Both the position numbers and the translations under genes were made by a program. The notes under the pieces were generated by a model. The model did not search any database and was not told the origin of the DNA. It saw nothing but the letters and a program-made list of their open reading frames with translations. A DNA stretch of 64,000 bases from positions 12,477 through 76,476 of the forward strand of contig JACPKP010000011.1 of the NCBI GenBank assembly GCA_016186955.1, read 5' to 3'. Below, in pieces: positions 28,646 through 56,020 of this stretch. Each line of letters opens with the position of its first letter. Positions within the stretch are counted from its first letter, which is position 1. Source of the DNA: Candidatus Daviesbacteria bacterium (GTDB lineage Bacteria > Patescibacteriota > Microgenomatia > Daviesbacterales > UBA10151).

Positions 28646-28654
28646 ATGTGCACC

Positions 28655-29995: not shown

Positions 29996-30003
29996 TAGGG
30001 ATA

Positions 30004-30031
30004 GTGTAAAGTGTAAAGTGTAAAGTGTAAA
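30004..30031. repeat. Heptanucleotide tandem repeat (GTGTAAA)x4
   Basis: gtgtaaagtgtaaagtgtaaagtgtaaa, 8 nt upstream of the ATG of 29354..29995 (minus strand). Confidence 0.8.
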
Positions 30032-30040
30032 GTAGTAACC

Positions 30041-30595: not shown

Positions 30596-30678
30596 GTTAC
30601 GGTAGTACATTATACCAAGTTTTGCAAACAATATCACATTGTGATATTGACATATGATATAATAGTAAATATAATTCA

Positions 30679-30960
30679 ATGATGCTAAACGCCAATATTG
30701 TGCCCGCCAGAAATCTTCAAAAATCTTACAAATCCATTATTGAAGAAGTAAAGAAAAAAAAGAAGGCAGTGGTTTTAACAACCAATAACCAGCCGCAAGC
30801 CGCCATTGTGAGTCTTGAGGATTTAGAAAAACTACAACAGACTAAAGCACAACAAGGGACTGCTGAAATGCTAAATTTTGTGGAGGAACACAAAGAAGAA
30901 CTGAAAGAACTACCAGCAAATTTACGCGAAATTGCAGATGATATCCTATATAGCAAATGA
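30679..30960 (+). CDS. Phd/YefM-type antitoxin
   Basis: Beta-strand KAVVLTTNNQPQAAIVSLEDLEKLQ typical of Phd/YefM. 4-nt overlap with the PIN gene. Confidence 0.55.
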   Translation: MMLNANIVPARNLQKSYKSIIEEVKKKKKAVVLTTNNQPQAAIVSLEDLEKLQQTKAQQGTAEMLNFVEEHKEELKELPANLREIADDILYSK

Positions 30961-31400: not shown

Positions 31401-31555
31401 CCTTCTAAATTCTTCCAAAATCTCCCTCGGCGGTACCTGGTTGCCTGCCATCCATAGCTTTAGCAAGGGATGGACTATGTTGGAACCTTTTATCAAATCT
31501 CAACACAGCAAAAGGCCTTTGTTAACACATTAATTGTACGATAAAATTAGTTTTA

Positions 31556-32065
31556 GTGACCAATAATGATTTCCTCAACTATCTATTCAATCTACAACCT
31601 ACTTGGGTAGCATTGCTTATCTTTTTATGGGGAGTTGGGTCGTTATTGATTGTTGCCGCAAAAACTAAAACAATAAAAACTGTCCTTTTTAAAAATCCCG
31701 GAATTGTAGTAGGAGACTTTTTTCTCTTGCCCATAGCAGGAGGTTTGATAACTTTCTTCTATCAACAGGTTACTAACCCCGTACCCGTAAATAATCCTTT
31801 GTGGACCCTTTCTATAATGTTTATTAGCCTACTTTTAACTATATTCTCGGCATTAAGATTTAAACTGCTCAACATTTTATGGCTACCTCATGGACTGTTT
31901 TATTTATTCATGAGTTATATTGTCTTAACTTTTATAAGTAAAGGACTGTGGCAACTCATACATGGTGGTACCCCACTATTATGGTTAATATGGATATTAG
32001 TCGTATTTGCTGTTACAACTCACCAACTCTTAGGTATTTTATGGTCAAAAAAGTTTCCTCTGTAA
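31556..32065 (+). CDS. Hypothetical polytopic membrane protein
   Basis: Five hydrophobic helices. Confidence 0.4.
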   Translation: MTNNDFLNYLFNLQPTWVALLIFLWGVGSLLIVAAKTKTIKTVLFKNPGIVVGDFFLLPIAGGLITFFYQQVTNPVPVNNPLWTLSIMFISLLLTIFSALRFKLLNILWLPHGLFYLFMSYIVLTFISKGLWQLIHGGTPLLWLIWILVVFAVTTHQLLGILWSKKFPL

Positions 32066-32223
32066 AAAAGTTTTGGTTGGAACCTGTTAAAAACTGCCTT
32101 TTTAGGCACAAATTGATGATATTGATAAAAAATGCCCTAAAAAATGATTGGGTTGGTTGGAACTTACCCTTAAGGGAAATATAGCCTGGTAAAACTGACT
32201 AGCTAAGGTTATTGTTAATCTTT

Positions 32224-32460
32224 TCATATAAATCTCTTTTTTAAAAATGCTCTTCCAGAACCAGACTTTAGATATTTCTCAAAACCATAAGCCTTATATT
32301 TATCTGTAAAAACTAAATAAGTTATCAATTTGACAGGTAATCTACTCTTGGTTGCTGGTACCCATCCGGACTCATGCCGTTTTAAGCGTTCATCTAAATT
32401 ATCTGTACATCCAACATAAGTCTTTTCATCATTACAAGTTAATATGTAAACATACCACAT
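32224..32460 (-). CDS. GIY-YIG nuclease domain protein (UPF0213/Slx1-like)
   Basis: Start set at MWYVYILTC: WYVYILTCNDEKTYVGCTDNLDERLKRHE is a textbook GIY-YIG. The longer ORF N-terminus is read from the repeat sequence. Confidence 0.6.
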   Translation of the reverse strand: MWYVYILTCNDEKTYVGCTDNLDERLKRHESGWVPATKSRLPVKLITYLVFTDKYKAYGFEKYLKSGSGRAFLKKRFI

Positions 32461-32464
32461 ATCA

Positions 32465-32820
32465 TTTATCTTAGCGGACTTTGTCCGTGCGCCGACGCTG
32501 AAGCTCTGGCGCAAGCGTCCGAAGCTCGCCATACAATCTCGCCGTCGCTAAAGCTATGGCGAGCGAATTCCTCTTTCGCGTACTTGGCGGATTTTATCCG
32601 CCGAAGTCCGCTTCAGCGGACGAAGGCGGAGGGGGTGAGATTCGAACTCACGGAGAGCTTGCGCCCTCAGAAGTTTTCAAAACTTCCGCACTAGGCCACT
32701 ATGCGACCCCTCCATCAAACTTTAATCTTTGAGGTCGCATAGGTACATTAGATAGTAAAGCACCGCTTGACGGTGCGGCTATCGCAAGAAACGAAGTTTC
32801 TTATGCGACCTCTCCATTCC
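32465..32820. repeat. Segmental duplication unit 1 (tRNA-Ser flanked by conserved 60-nt and 100-nt blocks)
   Basis: gcggactttgtccgtgcgccgacgctgaagctctggcgcaa (32465-32524) and atcaaactttaatctttgaggtcgcatag...cttatgcgacctctcca (32714-32815) recur at 32916-32975 and 33098-33199. Confidence 0.7.
32627..32713 (-). tRNA. tRNA-Ser (anticodon TGA)
   Basis: Reverse-complement GGAGGGGTCGCATAGTGGCCTAGTGCGGAAGTTTTGAAAACTTCT...; anticodon loop TTTGAAA; long variable arm. Confidence 0.75.
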
Positions 32821-32915
32821 GGATGTCAGATGTCAAAAATCGGATTTCGGATCAGTACAATTTTATCCGATTTATCCGAGATCTGATTTCCGATATCCGA
32901 AATCCGAACTTGGCG

Positions 32916-33199
<284 letters not shown>

Positions 33200-34076: not shown

Positions 34077-34443
34077 GGGGATGTATAGTTTCGACAAGTC
34101 GGCACTTTAAAAACTGCAAGCCGTTTAGGGAACATTAAACGTTAAATACTGTTTCAAAACGTAAACGCCAATTTATTTGGTCGTTCCAGTGACCGCGTAG
34201 CATACGCTTACGCCTAACCGGTGCTTTAGAAATTCTTCCTCCTGATGGGAATCTAAGGTATATACACAGTCGGGATGCAAAATTTAAAGGTGCAGGTTGA
34301 TCCTTAAATTTTAAAGACAACTCAATCTGGTATCAGTTTTCCTGCTAATTGGTTACAATTGATATCTAAATATTAATTAGCTAAGCTTGTAGAAGTTTTT
34401 GAATAACTTACTTGGACGAGGGGTCACACCCTCCATCTCCACC
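34077..34443 (+). ncRNA. ssrA: tmRNA (SsrA)
   Basis: 5' GGGGATGTATAGTTTCGACAAG (tRNA-like acceptor and TTCGAC D-loop analogue). 3' GGACGAGGGGTCACACCCTCCATCTCCACC compares with the E. coli 3' end GGACGGGGGTTCAAATCCCCCCGGCTCCACCA. Internal tag ORF ...gca tac gct tac gcc taa (…AYAYA*). smpB lies 0.9 kb away. Confidence 0.7.
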
Positions 34444-34517
34444 CGATAATCCCATACTTTGAGTATGGGATTTTTGAAGATTGACATTTCCCAAATAAAA
34501 AAGTATATTCCCTAACA

Positions 34518-38190: not shown

Positions 38191-38757
38191 TTAAACCCTC
38201 TTTAAATCTTCAATTCGGTCTGCCACTAAATCCGGTTTGGGTACATTTAAAAACCCTATGTTGTGGGTTTCCGCTGCAGTTTGGATTATGATATCCCCAA
38301 AGTAAAAAAGGGACCCAAAAACCCCTTTTACCGACGAGGATATTGTCTCAATATTTTTAAGGTCAATGGTCAAAATATCCCTTGAGGTCAGGTTATAAAA
38401 ATTAACATCTATAACATGCAGGTTGGTGACTATATAGATATTAAAATACCAGAATAAAAACTTCTCAATTGTGTAGGCTACAACAAGCATATACCAGATG
38501 ACCAAACCCCCAACAAAAACCTGAATTGGTATTGCACTGATAATATTTAGATTGAAAATCTCTTCCAGTCTGATGGTAATCACTGGCAGTGTAAATGCTG
38601 CCAGTGAAGCTAAAATCCACGGTAGATTGACAATTCCATGCTCCCTTAAAAAAAGCTCTACAACTTCATCTTTCTCTTGTTCAATAAACTGAATTTTTTG
38701 GGGCTTGTCAAAAAAGGAGGGGAAAAATTTAAGGTCCATATGAGTGGATAATAGCAC
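38191..38757 (-). CDS. Membrane protein with bacterial PH-like (DUF304/bPH_2-like) domain
   Basis: Two TM helices followed by a beta-rich domain of about 90 aa; assignment by architecture only. Confidence 0.3.
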   Translation of the reverse strand: MLLSTHMDLKFFPSFFDKPQKIQFIEQEKDEVVELFLREHGIVNLPWILASLAAFTLPVITIRLEEIFNLNIISAIPIQVFVGGLVIWYMLVVAYTIEKFLFWYFNIYIVTNLHVIDVNFYNLTSRDILTIDLKNIETISSSVKGVFGSLFYFGDIIIQTAAETHNIGFLNVPKPDLVADRIEDLKRV

Positions 38758-38856
38758 AGGTAATTTTCAATTTACAATTAATTTTTAAACTGTTTAAAAA
38801 TTAAAACATTGATTATTGATTGAAAATTAGAAATTAAAAATTGAAAATTAAATTAA

Positions 38857-40518
38857 TTATTTTTTCTCAATATTATAGAGTGGGGACTTAATTGAGACAT
38901 ACCCCGGGGCCCGCAGGTTAAAGATGGTTTTAAAATCAGCCCCTGAAATGGTGATTGAACCTGTTTGGGTTGCAAAAGTCACGCTAGCTGTGCTTCCTCC
39001 CTCTGAATACACCACCGATGCACTGCTGACAGAGGTGACTGCCCCACCATGCTGGTTGGCTTTATCCCTCATCTCTGATATGGAAAACGGGTTTCCGCTC
39101 CAGCAGGATGTATCTACCGGGGAAATCCTATCCCGCGAGTCCCCGGACTGATAAACAATCCAGGAATTTAATATATCCGACATCTCTTCGTTATTCAACC
39201 AGGGATGGGACTTGCCGCAGGACGCTCCCAAACGGTCCTTATACCAACCTTTATAAAACCAGGGTGAACCGGCGATTTTTTCAAAAGCATCACCTGTCCA
39301 GCAATTCTTTGAACCGCATTTTGTATCCCAACCGCCATTGTTGGTATAACCTCCTGTTGTGGAAGAATACTGGGCGTTTGGCCCGCCTTCCAAAACCCAC
39401 CCTTTTGTCTCATTTACAGCCTCTTCCCAAGCTCCGCCTTTGTTTGAGTCTTTATAAACCTGGCACGACTCAGTCGGGCAGATTGAACCGCCCTGGCGCA
39501 CAGCATAAGTCCTGGCTGCCACAGCCTGGGCTTTGAGGGCTTCTTTGGGAAACGAGTTGGGCATTTCATAAATCCTTTTCATATACTCATCTTCAAAATT
39601 CCTACTCCCGTACCCTGATACATTGATGGTTGCAGGCACATTATAGCTTTTATTAAGTGAGGCCCCGGGATAATAGGCTGCCAAAATCTGCTCCGCATTT
39701 TGCCCTGAATCAGCCCTGCCTTTGGCGCCGTATTGGCTCATCCCGTTGCGGTGGGTATAAGCGCCAAACGAAAACATGGCAAAAGCAGGTGAAAAACCAG
39801 GGTTGAAATCAGGCCTGGCATTACTATCATCTGCCAACGGGACATCACCAACAGAGGTGGTAAAGGTGCCTGATTTGGCAGCTAATATCGCCTGTTGCCT
39901 GGCGGAGAGTTCCGCAATTTTACCGGAGAGATCTGCCTGATAATCTTTGGCTTTTTTTATTTCCCCACCTAAAAACACGGCGTTTTTATCTACCTGAGCC
40001 TGCAGGGAAGCAAGGGAAGCCTTGTCTTTTTCCAGTTTTTCTTTCTGGCTGAGCAGATCAACAATCTCGTCCGTAATAGAAGTTATTACTTTCTGGTCCT
40101 CCCTGGTTGCTGCAAGGCGGTAGGAGAGTTCCCGGAAAATACTGGCTGAGGATTGTGAGGAAAATAAAACAGTTAAGGGGTTGGTGTGGTAAGAGCGGAT
40201 GTAATATGAGCGAACCCGCTGTTCAAGCAAAACCTGCTGAAAGGCTATTTTTTCTGTCCTGGCTTCAAGGTCTTTTTCCTTCCGGGAGATTTTATAAGAA
40301 AGGCTGTAAAGGGAAGCCTGGATTTGGGCAAGCTGGCGCTTCAAAGAATCCAGCTGGCCTTCCAAAGGTTTGGTGGCATCAACGGACATCTTTTTAGCCT
40401 TCTCAAGCTCATTTATCTGTTTTTGCAGGTCCTCTACCTCATCAGCATGAATGGGAAAAGTAACAAGTAACAAGTAACAAGTAACAAGTAACAAAAATGG
40501 AAGAATAGTTTTTCTCAT
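38857..40518 (-). CDS. SpoIID/LytB-domain cell-wall protein with N-terminal coiled coil (EnvC-like)
   Basis: Signal peptide, long coiled coil, SpoIID signature EALKAQAVAARTYAVRQ. Confidence 0.6.
   Translation of the reverse strand: MRKTILPFLLLVTCYLLLVTFPIHADEVEDLQKQINELEKAKKMSVDATKPLEGQLDSLKRQLAQIQASLYSLSYKISRKEKDLEARTEKIAFQQVLLEQRVRSYYIRSYHTNPLTVLFSSQSSASIFRELSYRLAATREDQKVITSITDEIVDLLSQKEKLEKDKASLASLQAQVDKNAVFLGGEIKKAKDYQADLSGKIAELSARQQAILAAKSGTFTTSVGDVPLADDSNARPDFNPGFSPAFAMFSFGAYTHRNGMSQYGAKGRADSGQNAEQILAAYYPGASLNKSYNVPATINVSGYGSRNFEDEYMKRIYEMPNSFPKEALKAQAVAARTYAVRQGGSICPTESCQVYKDSNKGGAWEEAVNETKGWVLEGGPNAQYSSTTGGYTNNGGWDTKCGSKNCWTGDAFEKIAGSPWFYKGWYKDRLGASCGKSHPWLNNEEMSDILNSWIVYQSGDSRDRISPVDTSCWSGNPFSISEMRDKANQHGGAVTSVSSASVVYSEGGSTASVTFATQTGSITISGADFKTIFNLRAPGYVSIKSPLYNIEKK
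40460..40494. repeat. Heptanucleotide tandem repeat (GTAACAA)x5, coding-strand TTGTTAC, inside signal-peptide codons of 38857..40518
   Basis: gtaacaagtaacaagtaacaagtaacaagtaacaa encodes LLVTCYLLLVT. Confidence 0.85.
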
Positions 40519-41173: not shown

Positions 41174-42973
41174 TTGCCCCTCTTCAAAATGCATGGTAAG
41201 CAAAGCTTGCCATTTCATGGTAAGCTGGGGTTAATGTCCAAACTGATATCAATTTTAGCAATACAATTGTTTGGTTTATGTATTATTTTAACTCCTACTA
41301 TAATTTTTGCTGATGAATCTTGCAATGTAAGTGGTGGGGGGCAACAAGGTACGGTTACAATTACCACTAAATTACTAAACCCAGTTATACCTCCTAATTA
41401 TGAAATAACATTCGAGCTTGATCCAAACGCTTTAGATATATTACGAGACCACAATATTGGTTTAGAAACCGGAGGTGGTTTTGGTGGAAGTTCAGTATAC
41501 ACAAACCCTATATCTGTAACCACAAGTAATATTGCTTTTGTAATAAGAGCTGGAAACATCAACCCTGATAACAACGATTCTTTAAGTAAATTCACTGACC
41601 CTGGAAAACATCAAATATCTATATACGAAGCTGCAGGAGGAAGTTCCGGAAGTACCGGGCGATCCAACATATGTTTAGCTTCAGCTGTTTTTGATTATGA
41701 AATTACAAACCCGAGGGTTTTAGAATGCAGTGGACAAATCACGGATAGCTCTACTTCTCAGGGGATTAATGGTGTAGTAATTGAAGTTTATGACGGAGCT
41801 GCTGCCAGCCCAACCCGTACATATAACGTCACCTCTGATGATGGTAAGTATGCTTTCAGACCATCTTCCGGTGGTTTTGGACCTGGCTCCCAACAAACAC
41901 ATAAGGTCATTTTTAAAAACAACGATTACCAAGATTATATTGTTGATTATCTATTACCTGTTACCCCACAAGCCTGTCCAGGAAATATTTCTCTAAAATC
42001 AGTGGCTTTAAAAGGATATGTTTGTGATAAAGGAACTTGCAGAGAATCAAACCCCGGAGAATCATCTAAATACCTGGACAATAATATGTGTAGTAAAGAT
42101 TGTGGTTTATATATTTATGATACGGGGAGATTATATTGTAGACCTGCTTTACCCAATGAAACAACAGGAATAATTTACAGTAAATCAGAATGCGAGGCAA
42201 AAACTCCCCTCGCAGGTACAGATAATTGTGTATATAACAAAACAGTAAATAAATGCGTATGCAACCCTAACTCTGTATCAGGTGGACAACCTCTTACAGA
42301 ATGCCTTAAAAAAGTAACTTCTTCAATTTATTCAGGCATAGACTGTTCAAAGCCTGAAAATAAAGACAAGTGCTCAACTTCTGCAGGACAGACATGTAAT
42401 ATCAATACCAATGAGGTTATAAAAATAGAAAATATTACCGCTAAAAAAGAAGACATGCCTAACACCAGGACCAACCCCATCTCAACATGCAGCGACGGAA
42501 CAGACCTGCGGGAAGTAGACAAAAGAACTGATAACCCTAACAGTTGTAACCCTGAAGCATCCTGCTACAAGGCTGTGACAGGTACAGGAGGTTTTGCTGC
42601 ATATTTTTGCTACAGGGAGCAAAAGACAGTAGCTGCTAAAACTACATATAGTGACAAAAATGGTAATCCGATAGATATGGACTCTAAGAATTTAGGTGTT
42701 TATACTGCCATTGGGTGTATCCCCACTGAGCCCTCAGCTCTAATTACTAAGCTTTTGACATTTGCTGCGGGAGGGGCTGGGGGGATTGCCCTTTTGCTTA
42801 TGATCTTTGGGGCTTTCAGGATGACGACCTCGGCCGGCAACCCGGAGAGCTTAAAAGCAGGCCAGGAACAATTTTCCTCCGCGGTAATAGGGCTGTTGTT
42901 TATTATTTTTGCAGTGTTGTTGCTGCAGATTATCGGGGTTGATATACTGGGATTGCCTGGTTTCACCAAATAA
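41174..42973 (+). CDS. Large secreted Cys-rich protein ending in a VirB2/TrbC-like pilin module (adhesin-pilin fusion)
   Basis: Signal peptide, then about 480 aa with more than 30 Cys. The C-terminal roughly 90 aa (TFAAGGAGGIALLLMIFGAFRMTTSAGNPESLKAGQEQFSSAVIGLLFIIFAVLLLQIIG) are homologous to the five downstream small TM-loop-TM proteins. Confidence 0.45.
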   Translation: MPLFKMHGKQSLPFHGKLGLMSKLISILAIQLFGLCIILTPTIIFADESCNVSGGGQQGTVTITTKLLNPVIPPNYEITFELDPNALDILRDHNIGLETGGGFGGSSVYTNPISVTTSNIAFVIRAGNINPDNNDSLSKFTDPGKHQISIYEAAGGSSGSTGRSNICLASAVFDYEITNPRVLECSGQITDSSTSQGINGVVIEVYDGAAASPTRTYNVTSDDGKYAFRPSSGGFGPGSQQTHKVIFKNNDYQDYIVDYLLPVTPQACPGNISLKSVALKGYVCDKGTCRESNPGESSKYLDNNMCSKDCGLYIYDTGRLYCRPALPNETTGIIYSKSECEAKTPLAGTDNCVYNKTVNKCVCNPNSVSGGQPLTECLKKVTSSIYSGIDCSKPENKDKCSTSAGQTCNINTNEVIKIENITAKKEDMPNTRTNPISTCSDGTDLREVDKRTDNPNSCNPEASCYKAVTGTGGFAAYFCYREQKTVAAKTTYSDKNGNPIDMDSKNLGVYTAIGCIPTEPSALITKLLTFAAGGAGGIALLLMIFGAFRMTTSAGNPESLKAGQEQFSSAVIGLLFIIFAVLLLQIIGVDILGLPGFTK

Positions 42974-43095
42974 TCTCAAAACTCAAATATCAAATGATAA
43001 ATCTACATCTTAAATTTTAAATCTTCGCAACCTTAAGATTTTAGATTTTAATTGTAGTTTTGACATTTGAGATCTCAGATTTGAGATTTAATATT

Positions 43096-43440
43096 ATGAA
43101 CAAGCTTGCTTTGACAATTGACAACAAAACTATTTCTCCCCCAACTAGCTTTAAACCTGAATTTACTGACCTTGGCTCTGTTATTACAGCTTCATTAAAC
43201 TTAATTTTTTATATTTCAGGGATGCTTTTGTTTATCTGGTTGGCCTGGGGGATCATGCAATATATCTTTGCAGGAGGGAATAAAGAAGCCCTGGCCAAAG
43301 CCCGGACCAGGATTATCTATGCCTTGGTCGGATTCATTATAGTAGTCCTGTCTTTCACCCTCAGTGAATACATCAAAGCTGTACTTAGCCCAACCAGTTC
43401 AATCCCGCAACCGCCAATCACACCAATCACACCACCATGA
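43096..43440 (+). CDS. VirB2/TrbC-like pilin paralog 1
   Basis: Start set at MNKLAL. TM - FAGGNKEALAKARTRI - TM. Confidence 0.45.
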   Translation: MNKLALTIDNKTISPPTSFKPEFTDLGSVITASLNLIFYISGMLLFIWLAWGIMQYIFAGGNKEALAKARTRIIYALVGFIIVVLSFTLSEYIKAVLSPTSSIPQPPITPITPP

Positions 43441-43805
43441 TTAAAAAGTTAGCCTTCATTAGTATAACGGTTATAACGTTTATAAATATTATATTTACAC
43501 ACCCTGTCTATGCTGAAGACCTTAAAAAACAATATGGTTTTGGCTGGATCACCAGTTTGGGGGATGTTATCAGCCGTAACATTGTCCCGGCCGGTTTTGA
43601 GATTGCCGGGATTGCACTCCTTTTTTATATAGTCATAGCAGCCATAAAGTACATGACCTCAGGCGGTGATAAAGAAGCTGTAGCTTCTGCCCGTGGCATG
43701 ATTACCCATTCTGTGATAGGATTTTTAATGCTGATATTTTTATTTTTATTTTTGCAGTACATCCTGCCCGCAATCGGGCTTAAAAATTTTATTATTGTAA
43801 GATAA
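43437..43805 (+). CDS. VirB2/TrbC-like pilin paralog 2
   Basis: Signal peptide (…THPVYA), then TM - MTSGGDKEAVASARGMIT - TM. Confidence 0.5.
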   Translation: MIKKLAFISITVITFINIIFTHPVYAEDLKKQYGFGWITSLGDVISRNIVPAGFEIAGIALLFYIVIAAIKYMTSGGDKEAVASARGMITHSVIGFLMLIFLFLFLQYILPAIGLKNFIIVR

Positions 43806-44125
43806 TGGCATACCTGGCAAAAAGTTTTCAAGATATTATCGGACAGATTACCCCTCCTGACCCTATCCAGGACATAGGCCGGGGAGGCCGGGGAATAAAT
43901 ACTGTCTTAAGCAATATCCTGACCATAATTTATATATTCGGGACAATCATTTTCCTATTTATGATTGTCATAAGTGCGGTTCAGTGGATTGTCTCAGGCG
44001 GTGATAAAGAAGTTGTCCAAAAAGCCCGCTCAAGGATAACTAATGCTATAATAGGTATAGTGCTTTTAGCGCTGGCAAGGTTTATTGTTTCGCTGATAGG
44101 CTCAATCACAGGGTTTAAAATCTAA
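43805..44125 (+). CDS. VirB2/TrbC-like pilin paralog 3
   Basis: TM - WIVSGGDKEVVQKARSRIT - TM. Confidence 0.5.
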   Translation: MAYLAKSFQDIIGQITPPDPIQDIGRGGRGINTVLSNILTIIYIFGTIIFLFMIVISAVQWIVSGGDKEVVQKARSRITNAIIGIVLLALARFIVSLIGSITGFKI

Positions 44126-44158
44126 ACAGTATATTGACAAACCTTAAATAACCTGCAT

Positions 44159-44587
44159 ATGATAATATTAATGAGATCAAAAGTTCTTAGTGTATTAGCT
44201 GTCGGTGCTGCTGTATTGCTAAATCCTATCTCTGTCTTTGCGCAGGATGATGTTAGAAATATTGGTTCTATAGCGCCATCTGCCAGCGGTCTTACGGGAA
44301 TTAATCCATCAACTACCTCTTTAGGTGATTTAATCAGAAATGCCCTTGTTATTATTTATATACTTGCAGCAGTAGCAGTTTTAGCTATGCTGGTTTTTGG
44401 TGCCTTCCAATGGATCACATCAGGAGGAGACAAGGAAGCTGTACAAAAAGCCAGAAGCAGGATAACTGCTGCTTTAGTCGGTATGGGTATTTTGGCTTTA
44501 GCATTATTTATCACTGTACTCATGGGACAAATATTGAATATCAATGTCTTAAATCTTCCAACCTTACCAACACTCGGTAATCCATAA
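44159..44587 (+). CDS. VirB2/TrbC-like pilin paralog 4
   Basis: Signal peptide (…VFAQ), then TM - WITSGGDKEAVQKARSRIT - TM. Confidence 0.5.
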   Translation: MIILMRSKVLSVLAVGAAVLLNPISVFAQDDVRNIGSIAPSASGLTGINPSTTSLGDLIRNALVIIYILAAVAVLAMLVFGAFQWITSGGDKEAVQKARSRITAALVGMGILALALFITVLMGQILNINVLNLPTLPTLGNP

Positions 44588-44629: not shown

Positions 44630-44932
44630 ATGGATGGGCCTGCCGGAATAAAACAGATACAAGAACTTATTTTGCGGGTAATAAACCTGTCTGTGGGGTT
44701 AGTGTTTTTTGTTTTGGTAATAGTCCTGGCCATAGGCGGGATTAAATTTTTAACCTCCGGGGGTGAGCAGAAAGCTGTCCAATCCGCCAAAAGCATGATT
44801 ACCTGGGGTATCCTGGGAGTTGTTTTTATGGGGCTGGCCTGGTTGATTTTAAGCCTGGTTGAAGCTTTTACAGGAGTCAAGGTAACCCAGTTTAACCTTT
44901 GTGTGTTGTTTCCAGGCGGTGTCTGCCCATGA
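44630..44932 (+). CDS. VirB2/TrbC-like pilin paralog 5
   Basis: TM - FLTSGGEQKAVQSAKSMIT - TM. Confidence 0.5.
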   Translation: MDGPAGIKQIQELILRVINLSVGLVFFVLVIVLAIGGIKFLTSGGEQKAVQSAKSMITWGILGVVFMGLAWLILSLVEAFTGVKVTQFNLCVLFPGGVCP

Positions 44933-45843
44933 TTAGTAAATTTCAAATTTCAAATTTCAAATTTCAAATTTCTTTATTTTTCCTTTTTACTTTTTCCTTT
45001 TTACTTTTTCCTTTACATGCTTTTGCCAGCCATTGTGATGCCTCAGGTAATTTTACCTCACTAAACAGCTACTGCGACCCCTCCACCAACACCATCTGGC
45101 AAGATGAGGTTGACTGCACCCATGCTGACACTGGCACAGCCTGCGCTATCCCCGCACCTGCAACCTGTCTGTACAATGAAACCTGTGACGCAGGACCGGG
45201 CCCTGCCAGCGGGGAACACACTTGCACAGGCACTAACCCAAATGAAGCCGGGCAACCCCAGTGCGGATATAACAGTGCAGTTGACCCTGCCTGCACAGCC
45301 TGCACAGCCAAAACACCTCCTGCGCCACCTGTTCCACCTCCAGCCCCGCCAGCTCCACCTGCTGGCGCCACCCCAACAGCAGCCATAGCTACAGAAAGCG
45401 CTGAGGAAGCAGCCATCAGGCATATGGATACAGGGTTAAAACCTGAGGAATTACCACAAGAAGCAGACGAGAAACCAGGGATCATCCAAATCATAGGGGA
45501 TTTTTTTAGCAATATAGGGAGGTTATTAAACAGAATGGTATCTTTTTTCCAAAATTCTCAGGGTTTGCAAACAGCCGAGCTTCCTGAACAAAATTGTAAA
45601 TCAAGCGATCCTGATAGTGCAGTAAGTAACTTTTTAGGGGATAGTGATTGTAAAGGAATCTATAACAGCACAACACCTGATGAACAAATTTTACCGAATG
45701 GAATAAAAGTCAGGGTTGGTAATATTGATATCCCAAAAACTGAACAGGCGAATGCTAAAGAGGAGGGTTTTGAGGATGCGTTTTTACCTGAAGGATGTAA
45801 TAAAATAACTACCGGTGATTGTAATATACCTATTAGCCCATAG
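44929..45843 (+). CDS. Secreted Cys-rich, Pro-rich protein
   Basis: Start set at MISKF. Signal peptide, Cys-rich module, PAPPVPPPAPPAPPA linker, second Cys-containing module. Confidence 0.4.
   Translation: MISKFQISNFKFQISLFFLFTFSFLLFPLHAFASHCDASGNFTSLNSYCDPSTNTIWQDEVDCTHADTGTACAIPAPATCLYNETCDAGPGPASGEHTCTGTNPNEAGQPQCGYNSAVDPACTACTAKTPPAPPVPPPAPPAPPAGATPTAAIATESAEEAAIRHMDTGLKPEELPQEADEKPGIIQIIGDFFSNIGRLLNRMVSFFQNSQGLQTAELPEQNCKSSDPDSAVSNFLGDSDCKGIYNSTTPDEQILPNGIKVRVGNIDIPKTEQANAKEEGFEDAFLPEGCNKITTGDCNIPISP
44938..44972. repeat. Heptanucleotide tandem repeat (TTTCAAA)x4 inside the first codons of 44929..45843
   Basis: aaatttcaaatttcaaatttcaaatttcaaatttc encodes SKFQISNFKFQIS. Confidence 0.85.
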
Positions 45844-46441: not shown

Positions 46442-46504
46442 ATTTACTGCCCTAAGCCATAAGTGCACTTGCAAAAATCCTTGGGTTTGAGGTAGTCTTA
46501 AAGT

Positions 46505-48316
46505 ATGGCTGCCCGGGAGTTGGTTATTAGTTCATGGTTTGTAGTTTATAGAAAAATTTTTCTCTTTTTTGTTTTACTTGTTACTTGTTACTTGTTACTT
46601 GTTACTTATCTTCCGCCCGCTTTTGCCCAGGGAACACCTCCTGCAGCAGGTACAACTTCTGCAGCCGGTACAACCCCTGCAGCTGCCCCCTGGAACGCCC
46701 AAAACCAGTCCAATTTCACCTCTCAAACCCTCCAACATGCAATCCTTTGCGACCTGGTATTTATGAGCCCATTGGGCAGGTGTGTCGGCTTTGAAAAAGA
46801 CCCGTCCAAAAAAGACGGTGTTAAAGTAAGCCTGTACGGACCGCAGTTCGGGGGAGCGCTGGGAAGTTTGACTAATATGGCGGTTGCCCTTTACCAACCC
46901 CCAACCTCCACAGTTTATTACCTGGCTGATGTGGCCAAAGGGTTTGGGATTATCACCCCAGCCTATGCCCAGGTTACCGGCTCAGGAGCAGGGATTATAG
47001 AACCTGTTAAAAAACTGTGGGAGGTGATGCGCAATTTTGCTTATCTGGCATTTATTATTATCTTTTTGGCGATCGGTTTTATGATCATGTTCAGGCAAAA
47101 ATTAAACGCCCAGACGGTTTTGACAGTCCAGGCAGCATTACCGGGGCTGGTACTGAGCCTAATCCTGGTATTTTTAAGTTATTTTATTGCAGCTTTTTTA
47201 ATTGACCTGGCTTTTTTAAGCGTCCAGATCCTGGCTTGGCTTTTTATACAAAACGGGCTGGCAAACTCTTTTGGTGATGCAGCGGGAATACAAAGCCTGG
47301 CCCAAAATTCTAATATCCTGGAACTATTTAAAAACAGCTTCCGGTTTGAAGCATTTGGAGAGGTTACGGGTGGAGTATCCGGTACTGTAAATTCAGTGTT
47401 TGGCGGGTCTGCTGCAGGACCAAATGCTTTGGCTATTATCATACCTGCAATTATCGGTTCAGTTATTGCATTTTTTATTTTTCCACCTGGAGGTTTGGTC
47501 GCACTTGGTGTTACTGCTGGTGGTGGAGCTGCTGCCGGCCTTTTGGCGCCTCTTATAATAGGCCTGCTCGTGCCTTTAATATTAATTATTGCCTTGGCTA
47601 TCCAGTTTTTTAAACTGCTTTTTAAGCTGATCATGGCTTATGTCATGTTGCTGGTGACAACAATCCTCGGCCCGCTGCTGATTTTAGTCAGCGCAGTACC
47701 CGGTAAAGGAACGTCATTGTCTTTTTGGTGGAAAAACCTGCTGGGTAATGCCCTGGTTTTTCCTGCTGTATTCGGGACTTTTTTATTTGCAGGGATGATC
47801 CTGGCCACAGACCCTTCAGCTTGGAAAGCCAGCCCCCCGCTTTTTGGCGGGCTCTCCACCGAACTTTTGAGGCTGATCATCGCTTACGGGATAATACTGG
47901 GCACACCAGCTGTACCTGATATGGTAAAAAAGATGATAGGAGCAGGGGATCTTGGAGAGATAGGCAAAACAGGCGCAGCCGGGTTCTTTGCAGGGTTTGG
48001 GGTAGGCAAGGGTGCAGGGACAGCTGGAGTTAATAGATTACTGGCGCCAACTATGCAACTTAGAAATGAGCGCAGAACCTTGCAAGAACAGGCCGCTCTT
48101 GGTAAGTTAGGTCCATTGGGTGAGGCAAGGCTTGCGGCGCTTCAAAGAGGCGCTTATAATGTTTATCCAACAGGGAAAAAGAACAAACAGGGTGAATATG
48201 AGAGGGATACCGAAGGTAACCTGGAAACCGAATCAAGGGGTAGAACATGGTGGCCAAGCAAGATCCAAAGATGGCTGGTTGAAACCGGAAATAAAGCCTG
48301 GTCAGGAAAAAAATAA
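46505..48316 (+). CDS. Polytopic Gly-rich membrane protein, VirB6/TrbL-like candidate
   Basis: Signal peptide, at least six TM helices and Gly-rich loops. Position within the T4SS-like locus. Family call by topology only. Confidence 0.35.
   Translation: MAARELVISSWFVVYRKIFLFFVLLVTCYLLLVTYLPPAFAQGTPPAAGTTSAAGTTPAAAPWNAQNQSNFTSQTLQHAILCDLVFMSPLGRCVGFEKDPSKKDGVKVSLYGPQFGGALGSLTNMAVALYQPPTSTVYYLADVAKGFGIITPAYAQVTGSGAGIIEPVKKLWEVMRNFAYLAFIIIFLAIGFMIMFRQKLNAQTVLTVQAALPGLVLSLILVFLSYFIAAFLIDLAFLSVQILAWLFIQNGLANSFGDAAGIQSLAQNSNILELFKNSFRFEAFGEVTGGVSGTVNSVFGGSAAGPNALAIIIPAIIGSVIAFFIFPPGGLVALGVTAGGGAAAGLLAPLIIGLLVPLILIIALAIQFFKLLFKLIMAYVMLLVTTILGPLLILVSAVPGKGTSLSFWWKNLLGNALVFPAVFGTFLFAGMILATDPSAWKASPPLFGGLSTELLRLIIAYGIILGTPAVPDMVKKMIGAGDLGEIGKTGAAGFFAGFGVGKGAGTAGVNRLLAPTMQLRNERRTLQEQAALGKLGPLGEARLAALQRGAYNVYPTGKKNKQGEYERDTEGNLETESRGRTWWPSKIQRWLVETGNKAWSGKK
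46574..46608. repeat. Heptanucleotide tandem repeat (TTACTTG)x4.9 (same unit as 40460-40494) in signal-peptide codons of 46505..48316
   Basis: ttacttgttacttgttacttgttacttgttactta encodes LLVTCYLLLVTY. Confidence 0.85.
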
Positions 48317-52297: not shown

Positions 52298-53377
52298 ATG
52301 GAAGCACATCCTGTCCCGCAAAATATAACCAATTTTGAATTCCACCTGGTTGGGGATATGACCTTAAAACAATTCGGGTATCTGGCTGGAGGTTTGGGGT
52401 TTGCATATATGATCTTTTTCCTTTTTGCCACCTCATTCCCGTTTGTTGCCTGGCCAATTGTCATAATTTCAGTAATCATCGGAATATCGTTTGCTTTTTT
52501 ACCCATCCAGGAACGCCCTCTTGACCATTGGGTTAGCGCTTTTTTTAAAGCTATTTTTAGGCCGACAAAATTTAATTATAAATCTGACATCGTTATAAAA
52601 GAGGACCCTTTTTTTAAAAAAAGGTTAGAATTTTTTCTCTCACAATTATCTGCAACCCCTGTAATTGGGCTTTCATGGGGGGATACACCTACTATAACTC
52701 CGCCTCCCCAACCTAAACCTGTTATAAAACCCGCCGTACAAGAGGTTAAAAAGGAAGCTGTCTCTCCGGCTGAACCTGTCAAACTCCCTGCCCCTGCTGA
52801 CTCTAAACTTCCAACCCAGGAAGACCTGAAAGCAACAGTCGAGCTGGCTGATAAAGCCCAAATAATCCGTAAAAAAATTACAGAAACAGAAGAGCAGTTA
52901 AGCCGGGTAAAAGCAAGGGCGATAGCGCCCGGAGAAGATAAAGAACTATTTGCTAAAGATTTCCAGGTTATTTTAAACAACCTGCAAAAATTAAACAGTG
53001 AAGCCGGCGAAATATCAAAAAAACTGGCAGTGCTTTCCAAAACGCCTATCAAAACACCAGCCATTGCCACCCCGGCAAAAAGCATGCCAACAATCAGTTT
53101 AACTGCTGTCCCTAATATCTTAAACGGGATTGTGACAGACCTTCAGGGAAATTATATAGAGGGTGCAATCCTGGTAGCCCATGACAAACAAAATTTACCT
53201 GTCCGGGCTTTAAAAACCAATAAGCTTGGCCAATTTATTGCCGCCACCCCCCTGCCCAACGGCGACTATGTTGTCACCTGCGAAAAAGATAATTTAATTT
53301 TTGACGTTATAAAAATAGAATTTTCAGGACAGGTGCTGCAACCTGTGATAATTTCAGCTAAAAAAGGAGCGCTCTGA
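52298..53377 (+). CDS. PrgI/VirB3-like two-TM protein fused to coiled coil and carboxypeptidase-regulatory-like beta-sandwich
   Basis: N-terminal GDMTLKQFGYLAGG, two TM helices and IQERPLDHWVSAFFKAIFRPTKFNY resemble the PrgI-family GLTxRQ...G.P.E.W...lrf signature. C-terminal GIVTDLQGNYIEGAIL...LPNGDYVVTCEKDN is CarboxypepD_reg-like. Confidence 0.35.
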   Translation: MEAHPVPQNITNFEFHLVGDMTLKQFGYLAGGLGFAYMIFFLFATSFPFVAWPIVIISVIIGISFAFLPIQERPLDHWVSAFFKAIFRPTKFNYKSDIVIKEDPFFKKRLEFFLSQLSATPVIGLSWGDTPTITPPPQPKPVIKPAVQEVKKEAVSPAEPVKLPAPADSKLPTQEDLKATVELADKAQIIRKKITETEEQLSRVKARAIAPGEDKELFAKDFQVILNNLQKLNSEAGEISKKLAVLSKTPIKTPAIATPAKSMPTISLTAVPNILNGIVTDLQGNYIEGAILVAHDKQNLPVRALKTNKLGQFIAATPLPNGDYVVTCEKDNLIFDVIKIEFSGQVLQPVIISAKKGAL

Positions 53378-54232: not shown

Positions 54233-56020
54233 ATGGACATATCTTTTGTCACACCACCTAAGCCAAAAACACCCAAACAGGATTGGCCGCCTGGGGGAAA
54301 AACAGGCGGCAAACTCTCTATTGCTGATGTGCTGGCGCCGGCAGAGGTAGAGGTTGATTTTTCTTTTCTCAGGATCAACAACTCACTTTACAGGTCTTTC
54401 TTTGTTTCAGCTTACCCCCGGTACGCTGAACCAAATTGGCTTGAGCCTTTGATTGATTTTGACCATTCACTGGATATTTCAATGTTTATCTATCCCTCAA
54501 CCTCAAAAACAGTCCTGGATGACTTAAAAAGAAAGATAGCTGAGATGGAAGCCACCATCCAAACGGATATCGAAAGAGGGAGGGCTATAAATCCATCAGT
54601 GCAGGTAGCGCTTGATGATGCCAGGGCATTGCAAGACCAACTCGTAAAAGGGTCTGAAAGGTTTTTTAGGCTGGGGCTTTATATAACAGTGCCTGTGCAA
54701 AAAAAGCCCGCAGCTGATGAAGATTTAAACAATATCTCTGAGCTGGTAGAATCTACACTGGGATCCATCTCTATAACCGCCAAAAAAACCACACTCCAGA
54801 TGGAAGATGCTTTTATCTCCACTATACCTTTGGGTATAGATAGGTTGAACCTAAACCATAATATGGATACCACCTCACTTGCCACCACATTCCCTTTTAC
54901 TACATCGGAACTGACTGCAAATGAAGGGATTATGTACGGAATTAATGAACACAACGGGTCTTTGGTGGTGTTTGACAGGTTTTCCCTGGAAAACTATAAC
55001 TCTGTAGTTTTTGCAAAAGCCGGCGCCGGTAAGTCTTATTTTGTCAAGTTGGAAATTTTAAGATCCCTTATGTTTAATACACAGGTGATTGTAATTGACC
55101 CTGAGCATGAATATATTAAGCTTAGTGAGGCTGTCGGGGGAGAGTATATAAATTTCACATCAGAATCACCTGTTAAAATAAACCCTTTTGACCTCTCTAA
55201 TGTTTTAGAAAGCGGTGAAAATGAACTGGGCAGAAAAATATTAACCTTAACCGGTTTTTTAAAGCTGGTTTTAGGGGAATTAACTTCTTCACAATCCGCT
55301 GTCTTAGATAGGGCGTTATCTAACACTTACCGTCTTAAAGGGATTACCGCTGACCCCCAAACACAAAAACTGGCGCCTCCTTTAATGGAAGATTTGTATA
55401 AAGTTTTAATCGGGATGGAGGACCCTAATGCTAAAGAACTGGCATTCAGGCTGGAAAGGTTTATTAAGGGGTCGTTGGCAGGAATATTTTCTGCACCCTC
55501 AAATATTAACCTTAATAACCAAATGGTGGTTTTTTCAGTCAGGGACCTGGCTGACCAGCTCCGCCCTTTAGCTATGTACTTAATACTTGATTATATCTGG
55601 ACAAAAATCAGGGCAAACCTGCAAAAAAGGCTACTGGTTGTTGATGAAGCCTGGTATATGATGAAAAACCCTGATAGCGCGCAGTTTTTAGTAGAGATGG
55701 CCAAAAGGGCCAGGAAATATTATCTCGGGGTCACCACTATTACCCAGGATGTTGAGGATTTCCTGGCAGAAGACAGGGGTAAAGAAATTATTTCTAATTC
55801 ATCAATACAAACCCTGTTAAAACAAAGTCCTTCTTCAATTGATAAAATAGGACAAGTTTTTAACCTGTCAGAAGGGGAAAAACACCTGCTTTTATCTGCA
55901 GGTGTAGGCCAAGGCCTTTTCTTTGCCGGCCCTTCGCATGTAGCCATCCAGATAGTGGCCTCACCTGAAGAACACCAGCTGATCACCTCCAACCCTGCTG
56001 AACTTATAGCTAAAAACTAA
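54233..56020 (+). CDS. virB4: VirB4/TrbE/PrgJ-family T4SS ATPase (ATPase domains)
   Basis: YRSFFVSAYPRY...WL...ISMFIYP region, Walker A VFAKAGAGKSYFVK, Walker B LLVVDEAWYMM, C motif VTTITQDVEDF. Confidence 0.75.
   Translation: MDISFVTPPKPKTPKQDWPPGGKTGGKLSIADVLAPAEVEVDFSFLRINNSLYRSFFVSAYPRYAEPNWLEPLIDFDHSLDISMFIYPSTSKTVLDDLKRKIAEMEATIQTDIERGRAINPSVQVALDDARALQDQLVKGSERFFRLGLYITVPVQKKPAADEDLNNISELVESTLGSISITAKKTTLQMEDAFISTIPLGIDRLNLNHNMDTTSLATTFPFTTSELTANEGIMYGINEHNGSLVVFDRFSLENYNSVVFAKAGAGKSYFVKLEILRSLMFNTQVIVIDPEHEYIKLSEAVGGEYINFTSESPVKINPFDLSNVLESGENELGRKILTLTGFLKLVLGELTSSQSAVLDRALSNTYRLKGITADPQTQKLAPPLMEDLYKVLIGMEDPNAKELAFRLERFIKGSLAGIFSAPSNINLNNQMVVFSVRDLADQLRPLAMYLILDYIWTKIRANLQKRLLVVDEAWYMMKNPDSAQFLVEMAKRARKYYLGVTTITQDVEDFLAEDRGKEIISNSSIQTLLKQSPSSIDKIGQVFNLSEGEKHLLLSAGVGQGLFFAGPSHVAIQIVASPEEHQLITSNPAELIAKN

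What the first reader, a model, noticed from the sequence alone, without database searches (positions are those of the whole stretch)
46574..46608. Second copy of the (TTGTTAC)n signal-peptide cassette, in the VirB6-like gene
See the previous finding. This is recorded separately because this copy sits in the putative T4SS channel subunit, so slippage would switch the whole secretion or pilus apparatus on or off. Alternative-frame small ORFs starting inside the repeat (46569.., 46585..) show that other frames are open for some distance.
Basis: seen in the sequence. Interest (0 to 1): 0.7.

Follow-up and report, generated by a model that had tools for sequence, protein, structure and literature searches.

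The report
Seven-base repeat inside a signal peptide
A perfect five-copy 7-base repeat encodes the greasy core of the export signal of a secretion-channel protein in an uncultured Daviesbacteria genome; it is one example of a lineage-wide habit of building export signals from such repeats, and it could switch the gene off by slippage, although no switched-off copy was found.

Summary
Window 46574-46607 is a perfect heptanucleotide array, (TTACTTG) x4.86. The same unit lies at 40458-40494 on the minus strand. Both encode LLVTCYLLLVT in the hydrophobic core of an N-terminal signal peptide.

The host gene (46505-48316) comes from a Candidatus Daviesbacteria MAG. It sits in a type IV secretion (T4SS) locus, and its model's best fold matches are DotA and TrwI/VirB6.

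"Cassette" is not supported, because the two copies share no flanking homology. This is a simple-sequence repeat of a class that dominates this lineage:
- All 20 perfect repeats of at least 21 nt in 544 kb of related loci, bar two of period 8, have period 7.
- About 15 of the 20 lie in signal-peptide coding regions, and all of these are in frame.

Copy number does change between close relatives, but only in 3-unit (21-nt) steps in the two cases seen. In silico, changes of 1 or 2 units truncate the protein to 84-98 aa. No out-of-frame allele appeared in 90 orthologue loci, and read-level variation could not be tested.

Best reading: a slippage-born, self-renewing repeat tolerated as signal-peptide core. 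Tuned ON/OFF phase variation is a live but unproven rival.

The parts
46574..46607 (+). Perfect heptanucleotide array, (TTACTTG) x4.86, equivalent to TTAC + (TTGTTAC)x4 + TT. It encodes LLVTCYLLLVT, the core of the signal-peptide h-region.
   Evidence: TRF, periodicity scan, pattern search against shuffles, translation.
46517..46551 (+). Probable degenerate heptamer array (GAGTTGG TTATTAG TTCATGG TTTGTAG TTTATAG) encoding ELVISSWFVVYR. It corresponds in position to the (GTTCATR)x5 array of orthologue P0137.
   Evidence: Read from the sequence and compared with L129-L134. TRF did not report it. This part is inference.
46505..46627 (+). Signal-peptide coding region (41 codons). The predicted cleavage is after AFA (A41|Q42).
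   Evidence: Translation. M1 and A41 are conserved in at least 90% of 77 orthologues. N-termini of 120 orthologues. AF2 gives helix 4-34 followed by a disordered linker.
46505..48316 (+). VirB6-like polytopic T4SS membrane protein, 603 aa (NCBI HYW46_06780, Candidatus Daviesbacteria).
46469..46504 (+). Promoter-like motif conserved among orthologues: TTGCAA (46469-46474), 18-nt spacer, TAGTCT (46493-46498), 6 nt, then ATG. It suggests a leaderless or near-leaderless mRNA.
   Evidence: Alignment with L125 and L126 and upstream sequences of L127 and L128. The simple sigma-70 scan did not call it. This part is inference.
40458..40494 (-). Sister array, (TTGTTAC) x5.29, in the signal peptide of a SpoIID-domain protein (38857-40518, minus strand). 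No flank homology with the focal array.
44938..45014 (+). Two adjacent heptamer arrays, (AAATTTC)x5 and a TTTTTCC-type array x5.4, forming the n- and h-regions of the signal peptide of the secreted Cys-rich protein 44929-45843.
   Evidence: There is a 3-unit difference from the orthologue in L125.
30003..30038 (-). Heptamer array, (CTTTACA) x5, ending 7 nt upstream of ATG 29995. The array itself supplies -35 TTTACA, a 17-nt spacer and -10 TACACT.

Best explanation
The feature is a genuine heptanucleotide simple-sequence repeat that forms the hydrophobic core of the cleavable Sec signal peptide of a VirB6-like T4SS membrane protein.

Why a repeat can be a signal peptide (shown):
- Seven is coprime to three, so three units are read in all three frames at once. 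TTG TTA CTT GTT ACT TGT TAC gives L L L V T C Y, so the array yields the same hydrophobic heptad whichever frame enters it.
- The antisense strand contains TAA, so the array can be coding only in this orientation.

Origin and turnover (inferred):
- Such arrays arise and are renewed by replication slippage. In Daviesbacteria this process overwhelmingly produces period-7 repeats.
- They persist where sequence constraint is lowest, namely signal-peptide coding 5' ends and promoter regions.
- Repeated contraction and expansion keeps some arrays perfect while others decay into merely heptad-periodic peptides.
- Selection keeps the gene in frame. The two copy-number differences seen between close relatives are both exactly 3 units (21 nt, 7 aa).

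Consequence:
- Slips of 1 or 2 units would give an 84-98 aa truncated product and no VirB6-like protein (shown in silico).
- I judge these to be mostly transient, counter-selected mutations at a short 5-unit tract, not a tuned switch (inferred).
For: - The repeat is perfect and non-random.
- Period 7 is the only long repeat class. In 544 kb (window plus 92 related loci) there are 20 perfect arrays of at least 3 units and 21 nt at period 7, 2 at period 8, and 0 at periods 4-6 and 9-12. In the window there are 7 near-perfect lag-7 segments and none at other lags. Four are signal-peptide coding and three lie just upstream of gene starts.
- About 15 of the 20 arrays lie in the first ~50 codons, on the sense strand, in frame with an upstream ATG.
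- Signal peptides of both gene families are hypervariable and often heptad-periodic while the mature parts are conserved. SpoIID-like mature regions are 71-82% identical. Lag-7 amino-acid periodicity in the first 55 residues occurs in 37 of 120 and 19 of 120 proteins, against 0-13 for other lags.
- Copy-number change in exact 3-unit steps with conserved flanks: (AAATTTC)5 in the window against 2 in L125, and (AGTCGTC)4 against 1 in P0147 and P0114.
- Stability: six independent assemblies of one population carry an identical (GTTCATR)x5 array. None of 90 orthologue loci has the signal peptide out of frame.
- TTGTTAC ranks 46th of 1608 stop-free heptamer classes for hydropathy. It is a widespread repeat unit, with more than 120 hits in species-representative genomes.
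- Heptameric repeats are known to be over-represented in bacteria, and polymerase slippage has been suggested as the cause (PMC4692102). N-terminal tolerance of repeats is documented (PMC3315296).
Against: - Perfect arrays of the same unit, at the same site and in the same codon phase, occur in a 28%-identical orthologue (L040). Degenerate versions occur in several others. That persistence would also fit selection for mutability.
- Three perfect ~5-unit arrays cluster within 8 kb of T4SS and cell-surface genes.
- All 7 arrays in the window lie close to gene 5' ends, the distribution typical of contingency loci.
- Assemblies report majority alleles only, so minority OFF cells would be invisible in the data I could reach.
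Confidence: 0.55

Rival explanations
1. Tuned contingency locus. The array is maintained because slipped-strand mispairing reversibly frameshifts the VirB6-like gene, switching the T4SS or pilus apparatus ON and OFF in a fraction of cells. This would mirror the Neisseria opa CTCTT repeats or the H. pylori oipA CT repeats in their signal-peptide regions. The sister arrays in the SpoIID-like and Cys-rich secreted proteins would belong to the same set of phase-variable genes.
For: - The unit length is not a multiple of 3, the tract is perfect, and changes of 1 or 2 units give 84-98 aa products.
- Rescue from an alternative start is unlikely.
- All window arrays sit at gene 5' ends or in promoters.
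- Three perfect arrays cluster in one surface or T4SS gene cluster.
- The same perfect array sits at the same position in a very distant orthologue.
- 3-unit differences between relatives could be the sum of single-unit steps passing through OFF states.
- N-terminal repeat enrichment is a recognised signature of phase variation (PMC3315296).
Against: - No OFF allele was seen: 0 of about 15 signal-peptide arrays and 0 of 90 orthologue loci. Genomes with classical contingency loci usually show many OFF alleles (my own knowledge).
- Six independent assemblies carry an identical array.
- The tract has only 5 units, and known switching tracts are usually longer (my own knowledge).
- The two closest orthologues do without the array.
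- A cleaved signal peptide offers no antigenic benefit, and period-7 arrays also fill non-coding spacers.
Confidence: 0.3
2. Shared or mobile signal-peptide module. The two TTGTTAC copies are homologous segments copied between genes by gene conversion or recombination, which is the first reader's 'cassette'.
For: - The same unit, the same 3' phase and an identical 11-residue peptide (LLVTCYLLLVT) occur in two genes 6 kb apart.
- With roughly 150 heptamer classes suitable for an h-region, sharing a unit by chance has a probability of about 1% if all were equally likely.
- The signal peptide of P0048 is 19 of 26 residues identical to the window's, although the mature parts are only 44% identical.
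Against: - There is no sequence similarity beyond the array on either side.
- The same unit recurs in unrelated genes and phyla.
- Related units (LLVTSY, LLTTNY, LLITCY) recur across both protein families, which points to a favoured repertoire rather than copying.
- Recombination within a 34-nt tract cannot be distinguished from slippage.
Confidence: 0.07
3. Nucleic-acid-level element. The array works as DNA or RNA, for example as an unstructured U-rich 5' coding region that helps translation of a leaderless mRNA, or as a protein-binding or promoter-proximal element. Its coding of a hydrophobic peptide would be secondary.
For: - A conserved promoter-like motif ends 6 nt before the ATG.
- The 30003 array itself makes a -35/-10 pair.
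- Inverted heptamer arrays form a stable hairpin between two pilin genes, with z = -5.3.
Against: - Arrays in different signal peptides use many unrelated units, so there is no common motif.
- Orthologues function with degenerate arrays or none.
- The simple promoter scan does not call the site upstream of this gene.
- Nothing here tests RNA function.
Confidence: 0.05
4. Chance similarity or assembly artefact.
For: Short tandem arrays can be mis-assembled, and k-mer assemblies break here.
Against: - 0 of 100 shuffles reproduce the pattern.
- Three other assemblies agree over the first 30 nt.
- The reading frame is intact and the signal peptide is orthodox.
- The same phenomenon appears in dozens of independent contigs.
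Confidence: 0.01

Closest known systems
Neisseria opa genes: CTCTT pentanucleotide coding repeat in the signal-peptide region (slipped-strand phase variation)
   Same: The repeat unit is not a multiple of 3. It sits in the hydrophobic core of the leader peptide and is translated as hydrophobic residues in every frame. A one-unit change frameshifts the mature protein (my own knowledge; in-silico result here).
   Different: - The unit is 7 nt, not 5.
- There are only about 5 copies, against roughly 7-28 in opa.
- No length polymorphism or OFF allele was seen here.
- The organism is an uncultured CPR bacterium, and the target is a T4SS membrane component, not an adhesin.
Helicobacter pylori oipA, hopZ and sabA: CT dinucleotide repeats in the 5' signal-sequence coding region
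   Same: A 5' coding repeat in the signal-sequence region gives translational ON/OFF switching (abstract of PMC10564699, listed).
   Different: These are dinucleotide tracts in outer-membrane proteins of a pathogen, and ON and OFF status is documented in isolates. Here no OFF state is documented.
Cyanobacterial STRR (short tandemly repeated repetitive) heptanucleotide arrays, and the general over-representation of heptameric repeats in bacteria (Mrazek 2007, as cited in PMC4692102)
   Same: Both are period-7 tandem arrays as the dominant long repeat class. The very same unit, TTGTTAC, forms arrays in Symploca, Caldora, Pleurocapsa, Richelia and Microcoleus genomes. Inverted array pairs occur in both.
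   Different: In cyanobacteria and Xanthomonas the arrays are mostly intergenic, often much longer, and of unknown function. Here most are recruited into signal-peptide coding sequence.
Haemophilus influenzae hmw1A/hmw2A 7-bp promoter repeats
   Same: A heptanucleotide repeat near a promoter modulates expression (PMC8262952 and PMC2651432, listed). This is relevant to the window's 30003-30038 array, which itself forms a -35/-10 pair.
   Different: Those tracts are longer and lie between promoter and gene, and they grade expression (my own knowledge). The focal array here is inside the coding region.
VirB6/TrbL/DotA family of T4SS inner-membrane channel or stalk proteins
   Different: - There is no Pfam TrbL match and no sequence-level PDB match.
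- TM-scores are low, 0.36-0.42 on the target.
- The protein is 603 aa, with a cleavable signal peptide and an extra N-terminal extracytoplasmic domain.

Membership tests
Repeat-driven phase-variable contingency locus | Perfect simple-sequence repeat tract inside the 5' part of an ORF or in its promoter | tested here: met
   34-nt perfect array at codons 24-34 of the ORF.
Repeat-driven phase-variable contingency locus | A unit gain or loss shifts the reading frame and abolishes the full-length product | tested here: met
   Changes of 1 or 2 units give 84-98 aa products, and changes of 3 units stay in frame. The only possible rescue starts are TTG codons in the array, with no Shine-Dalgarno-like sequence.
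Repeat-driven phase-variable contingency locus | Tract-length polymorphism within a population or between close strains, including out-of-frame alleles | tested here: not met
   - No variant of this tract was found. L001-L003 show at least 30 nt of array in 3 further samples.
- Arrays at the homologous 5' region differ between relatives only by exact 3-unit steps.
- Six assemblies carry an identical array.
- 0 of 90 orthologue loci are out of frame.
Repeat-driven phase-variable contingency locus | Measured high-frequency reversible switching | not testable with these tools
   This needs reads, cultures or a reporter assay.
Sec-type (signal peptidase I) signal peptide | Positively charged n-region, a 10-20 residue hydrophobic h-region, and a c-region with small residues at -3 and -1 (AXA) | tested here: met
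   R4, R16 and K17, then IFLFFVLLVTCYLLLVTYL, then PPAFA|Q. A41 is conserved in at least 90% of 77 orthologues. Orthologues end in xFAQ, VHAE or VQAA. No dedicated signal-peptide predictor was available, and cleavage is not shown.
VirB6/TrbL family | Sequence-profile match to the family (Pfam TrbL or a solved VirB6) | tested here: not met
   No Pfam family even at E up to 1. A profile of 77 orthologues finds no VirB6 among PDB sequences.
VirB6/TrbL family | Fold similarity to VirB6-type proteins | tested here: met
VirB6/TrbL family | Location in a T4SS gene cluster with a VirB4 ATPase, VirB3/PrgI and pilins | tested here: met
   - Five PF18895 T4SS_pilin genes at 41174-44587.
- PrgI at 52298-53377 and a TraG/AAA_10 ATPase at 54233-56020.
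- The same gene order in L125, L127 and L128.
STRR-like heptanucleotide repeat class | Tandem 7-nt units recurring at many loci of a genome as the dominant long repeat class | tested here: met
   7 lag-7 segments and none at other lags in 64 kb. 20 period-7 arrays against 2 of other periods in 544 kb.
STRR-like heptanucleotide repeat class | Predominantly intergenic location (as described for cyanobacteria and Xanthomonas) | tested here: not met
   4 of 7 arrays in the window and about 15 of 20 overall lie inside signal-peptide coding sequence.

The most novel reading that the evidence does not exclude
Daviesbacteria, and probably other Microgenomates, carry a previously undescribed set of heptanucleotide repeats placed at the 5' ends and promoters of secretome and T4SS genes.
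- These repeats would both generate new signal peptides, because any hydrophobic stop-free heptamer gives a frame-independent h-region.
- They would also act as contingency switches that let an episymbiont population vary its surface and secretion apparatus, with the VirB6-like gene as one switchable node.
- The persistence of the same perfect TTGTTAC array at the same position in a 28%-identical orthologue would then reflect selection for mutability.
Probability: 0.25. Interest if true: 0.75.

Novelty: new variant of a known kind. Interest (0 to 1): 0.5.

Why it matters
CPR bacteria are uncultured episymbionts, and their pili and T4SS-like systems are thought to mediate host contact and DNA uptake. 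Stochastic switching has, as far as my literature searches show, not been described in them.

If the array switches, it is a directly testable handle, by read counting, on heterogeneity of the T4SS in natural populations.

Even if it does not switch, the finding shows a simple mutational route by which signal peptides are built and renewed from 7-base repeats. That route explains why signal peptides in this lineage diverge far faster than the mature proteins. It also warns annotators that start-codon calls and assembly breaks will cluster at these sites.

Tried and rejected
- **Logan contigs as a test of length variation.** Contigs of the same population (L001-L004) end exactly where a 31-mer becomes pure repeat. 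That is explained by k-mers shared with the second locus. Their left ends differ between samples without a pattern. They are not informative about copy number beyond showing at least 30 nt of array.
- **Six assemblies of the P0108/P0137 population.** Apparent N-terminal length differences (490-522 aa) are only start-codon calling differences. The DNA is identical.
- **Exact look-up of the 609-aa downstream neighbour**, to obtain contigs entering the array from the right: not on record.
- **Homologue search for OFF alleles.** I searched with the N-terminal 120 residues plus both out-of-frame tails. It returned nothing, not even the parent protein, so it is uninformative rather than negative.
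- **Pfam and PDB sequence searches for VirB6:** no hit. Fold comparison was needed instead.
- **Pfam on the neighbours of L040:** nothing, so I could not confirm whether that bin, labelled Gammaproteobacteria, is really a CPR contig.
- **Simple promoter scan upstream of the gene:** no call. The leaderless-promoter idea rests only on conservation among orthologues.
- **Rejected readings:** mobile 'cassette' (no flank homology) and assembly artefact.
Full report
**1. Observation**

Window 46574-46607 is a perfect tandem array of a 7-nt unit, TTACTTG x4.86, which equals TTAC + (TTGTTAC)x4 + TT (TRF; periodicity scan; sequence).

(TTGTTAC)2 with at most 1 mismatch matches 7 times in the window. 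All matches fall in this array or in 40458-40494 on the minus strand. Dinucleotide-preserving shuffles give a mean of 0.05, and 0 of 100 reach 7.

Both arrays are translated in the TTGTTAC sense and give the same peptide, LLVTCYLLLVT, near the N-terminus of a long ORF. They are simply the two other frames, open for 65-69 codons after the array.

Three other assemblies of the same population reproduce the left flank and the first 30 nt of the array exactly.

**2. The gene**

The 603-aa product is identical to HYW46_06780 of a Candidatus Daviesbacteria MAG. Evidence on what it is:
- No Pfam family matches, even at E up to 1, and a profile of 77 orthologues finds no solved relative by sequence.
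- The neighbourhood is a Gram-positive-type T4SS locus: five PF18895 T4SS_pilin genes (41174-44587), a PrgI/VirB3-like gene (52298-53377) and a TraG/AAA_10 VirB4-like ATPase (54233-56020). The gene order is conserved in orthologous contigs.
- An AlphaFold model (pLDDT 75.6) has TrwI/VirB6 chains of plasmid R388 as its four best Foldseek matches in the PDB (probability 0.97-1.0, but TM only 0.36-0.42).
- One source names an orthologue TrbL/VirB6.

"VirB6-like" is therefore reasonable at the level of fold and synteny, but not at the level of sequence family.

**3. The N-terminus is a signal peptide**

The sequence MAARELVISSWFVVYRKIFLFFVLLVTCYLLLVTYLPPAFA|QG has basic residues, a 19-residue hydrophobic core and an AXA c-region. 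M1 and A41, the -1 position, are conserved in at least 90% of 77 orthologues. Orthologues end their leaders with xFAQ, VHAE, VQAA and similar.

Upstream, the motif TTGCAA, 18 nt, TAnnCT, 6 nt, ATG is conserved in the window, L125, L126 and L127. This supports ATG 46505 as the start and suggests a leaderless transcript. That is inference, because a simple sigma-70 scan does not call the site.

**4. Not a cassette but a repeat class**

The two TTGTTAC arrays share no flanking similarity. Period 7 is the only long tandem-repeat class here:
- In the window, 7 near-perfect segments occur at lag 7 and none at lags 4-6 or 8-12.
- In 544 kb (the window plus 92 related CPR loci) there are 20 perfect arrays of at least 3 units and 21 nt at period 7, 2 at period 8 and none at other periods.
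- Four of the 7 window arrays are signal-peptide coding (40453, 44934, 44977, 46570). The other three lie just upstream of gene starts (23552, 29998, 38824).
- About 15 of the 20 perfect arrays lie in the first ~50 codons of a gene, on the sense strand, in frame with a nearby ATG.

The focal gene itself seems to carry a second, degenerate array (46517-46551) ahead of the perfect one. The same two-array layout appears in ORF 44929, in P0008 ((AATTTTC)x4.1 plus a degenerate GTTAC-type array) and in P0048 ((CAGAGKT)x5 plus a degenerate TTGTTAC array).

**5. Why a heptamer works as a signal peptide**

Three units are read in all three frames. TTG TTA CTT GTT ACT TGT TAC gives LLLVTCY, so the peptide is the same whatever frame enters the array. 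The antisense strand contains TAA.

Of 2340 cyclic heptamer classes, 1608 are stop-free and about 150 are uncharged with mean hydropathy of at least 1.5. TTGTTAC ranks 46th.

The unit is a widespread repeat. It serves as a signal-peptide core in a few unrelated proteins (L077, L080).

One of those hits, L040, turned out to be a full-length orthologue of the VirB6-like protein (hhalign probability 100%, E 9e-46, 28% identity). It carries a perfect x4.3 array at the same position and in the same codon phase.

**6. Evolutionary behaviour**

- In the SpoIID-like family the mature part is 71-82% identical, while the leaders are hypervariable in length and sequence. Many are visibly heptad-periodic (LYPIPYTLYP, LLTTNYQLPTT, LLITHHSSLIT, SLFTIHYSLFT). 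One, P0178, again has LLLITCYLLLV.
- Lag-7 amino-acid periodicity in the first 55 residues occurs in 37 of 120 (SpoIID-like) and 19 of 120 (VirB6-like) proteins, against 0-13 for other lags. It is absent from the two internal windows of the SpoIID-like proteins and from one of the two in the VirB6-like proteins.
- The two closest VirB6-like orthologues (77-80% identity) lack the TTGTTAC array. The window has a 45-nt in-frame insertion relative to them.
- The leader of the more distant P0048 is 19 of 26 residues identical to the window's.

Direct copy-number changes were found twice, each with conserved flanks and each exactly three units (21 nt):
- (AAATTTC)5 in the window against 2 in L125, in the neighbouring gene of this same cluster.
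- (AGTCGTC)4 against 1 between P0147 and P0114.

Conversely, six independent assemblies of one population have an identical (GTTCATR)x5 array.

**7. Switch potential**

In silico, changes of 1 or 2 units give 84-98 aa products for the VirB6-like gene, 20-32 aa for the SpoIID-like gene and 31-49 aa for ORF 44929. Changes of 3 units stay in frame, with a leader 7 residues shorter or longer.

In shifted alleles the mature frame has no ATG or GTG upstream. It has only TTG codons in or at the edge of the array, preceded by T-rich sequence without a Shine-Dalgarno motif. Rescue by an alternative N-terminus is therefore unlikely.

I found no evidence that it operates:
- None of 90 orthologue loci has the leader out of frame. 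The one flagged locus, L170, has an in-frame leader with a non-ATG start.
- All signal-peptide arrays are ON.
- The tract is short at 5 units.

**8. Interpretation**

I favour (0.55) a slippage-born, self-renewing heptamer repeat that is tolerated, and repeatedly recruited, as signal-peptide sequence. Selection filters copy-number change to multiples of three units.

This fits several known or observed points:
- Heptamer repeats are over-represented in bacteria, and this has been attributed to polymerase slippage (PMC4692102).
- Protein termini tolerate repeats (PMC3315296).
- The same period occurs in non-coding spacers.
- No OFF alleles were seen.

The main rival (0.30) is a tuned contingency locus like opa or oipA. 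In its favour are the 5'-end and promoter placement of all arrays, the cluster of three perfect arrays in T4SS or surface genes, and the persistence of a perfect TTGTTAC array in a very distant orthologue.

Minor rivals are gene conversion of a shared module (0.07), a DNA- or RNA-level role (0.05) and artefact (0.01).

**9. Novelty**

Repeats in signal-peptide coding regions that frameshift a gene are a known kind (opa, oipA). What differs here is a heptanucleotide version in a CPR T4SS gene, and above all the lineage-wide construction of signal peptides from heptamer arrays.

I found no paper combining "heptanucleotide" with "Candidate Phyla Radiation". None of the top-ranked papers in a search combining Patescibacteria with phase variation mentioned Patescibacteria. 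This is absence of evidence within the searchable library only.

Noticed in passing
window 30003-30038 (minus strand), upstream of ORF 29354-29995: A (CTTTACA)x5 array ends 7 nt before the ATG. Because of its period it contains -35 TTTACA, a 17-nt spacer and -10 TACACT entirely within the repeat. The repeat may therefore be the promoter of a leaderless gene, and contraction below about 4.2 units would remove it.
   Followed up: partly
window 42972-43089, between pilin-domain gene 41174-42973 and the next pilin gene (ATG about 43096): Two imperfect heptamer arrays of complementary units, (AATCTCA)n and (AGATTTG)n, form a long imperfect hairpin. The RNA fold is -30.4 kcal/mol, z = -5.3, and 0 of 200 shuffles do as well. 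It could be a terminator, an attenuator or a processing site.
   Followed up: partly
window 44929-45843 and L125 6734-7462: A secreted Cys-rich protein has a leader made of two consecutive arrays, (AAATTTC)x5 then a TTTTTCC-type array x5.4. The orthologue in the closest relative has exactly 3 fewer AAATTTC units, with conserved flanks.
   Followed up: yes
L040 5629-5658 (minus strand); GTDB bin labelled uncultured Gammaproteobacteria: A 590-aa full-length orthologue of the VirB6-like protein (28% identity, hhalign E 9e-46) carries a perfect (TTGTTAC)x4.3 array at the same signal-peptide position and in the same codon phase. Its neighbours have no Pfam hits, and the taxonomic label of the bin may be wrong.
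   Followed up: partly
window 46469-46504; L125, L126, L127 and L128 upstream regions: A conserved motif, TTGCAA, 18 nt, TA..CT, 6 nt, ATG, lies upstream of VirB6-like genes and suggests leaderless transcription. Some gene callers extend orthologues through it, giving spurious 'MCKNGGM...' N-termini.
   Followed up: partly
window 46640-46683 and 45314-45372: In-frame tandem repeats of 18 nt (x2.4, encoding the AAGTT[SP] repeat within PAAGTTSAAGTTPAAA) and 21 nt (x2.8, proline-rich) lie just after the signal peptides of the VirB6-like and Cys-rich proteins. They encode variable low-complexity linkers that differ in the closest orthologues.
   Followed up: no
window 23552-23582 and 38824-38852: AT-rich, near-perfect heptamer arrays lie in short spacers immediately upstream of the starts of minus-strand genes 22450-23544 and 38191-38757. 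All seven lag-7 arrays of the window lie close to a gene 5' end.
   Followed up: partly
proteins P0148-P0267 (SpoIID-like family of window gene 38857-40518): The mature domains are 71-82% identical, but the signal peptides are almost unalignable. They reuse a small repertoire of heptad peptides (YPIPYTL, LLTTNYQ, LITHHSS, IHYSLFT, LLVTCY), which implies rapid, repeat-driven turnover of signal peptides.
   Followed up: partly
L001-L003 ends (window 44944, 44979, 45030 and 46603): k=31 Logan contigs of this population break at or near the heptamer arrays. The right-hand break is explained by 31-mers shared between the two TTGTTAC loci. The left-hand breaks differ between samples and remain unexplained; low coverage of T-rich sequence is one possibility.
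   Followed up: partly
window 34077-34444 and 21568-33097: A tmRNA gene (Rfam 102.6 bits) and seven tRNA genes (Asn, 4 Ser, 2 Arg) lie upstream of the T4SS locus. This is ordinary chromosomal context and argues that the T4SS cluster is chromosomal rather than plasmid-borne.
   Followed up: no
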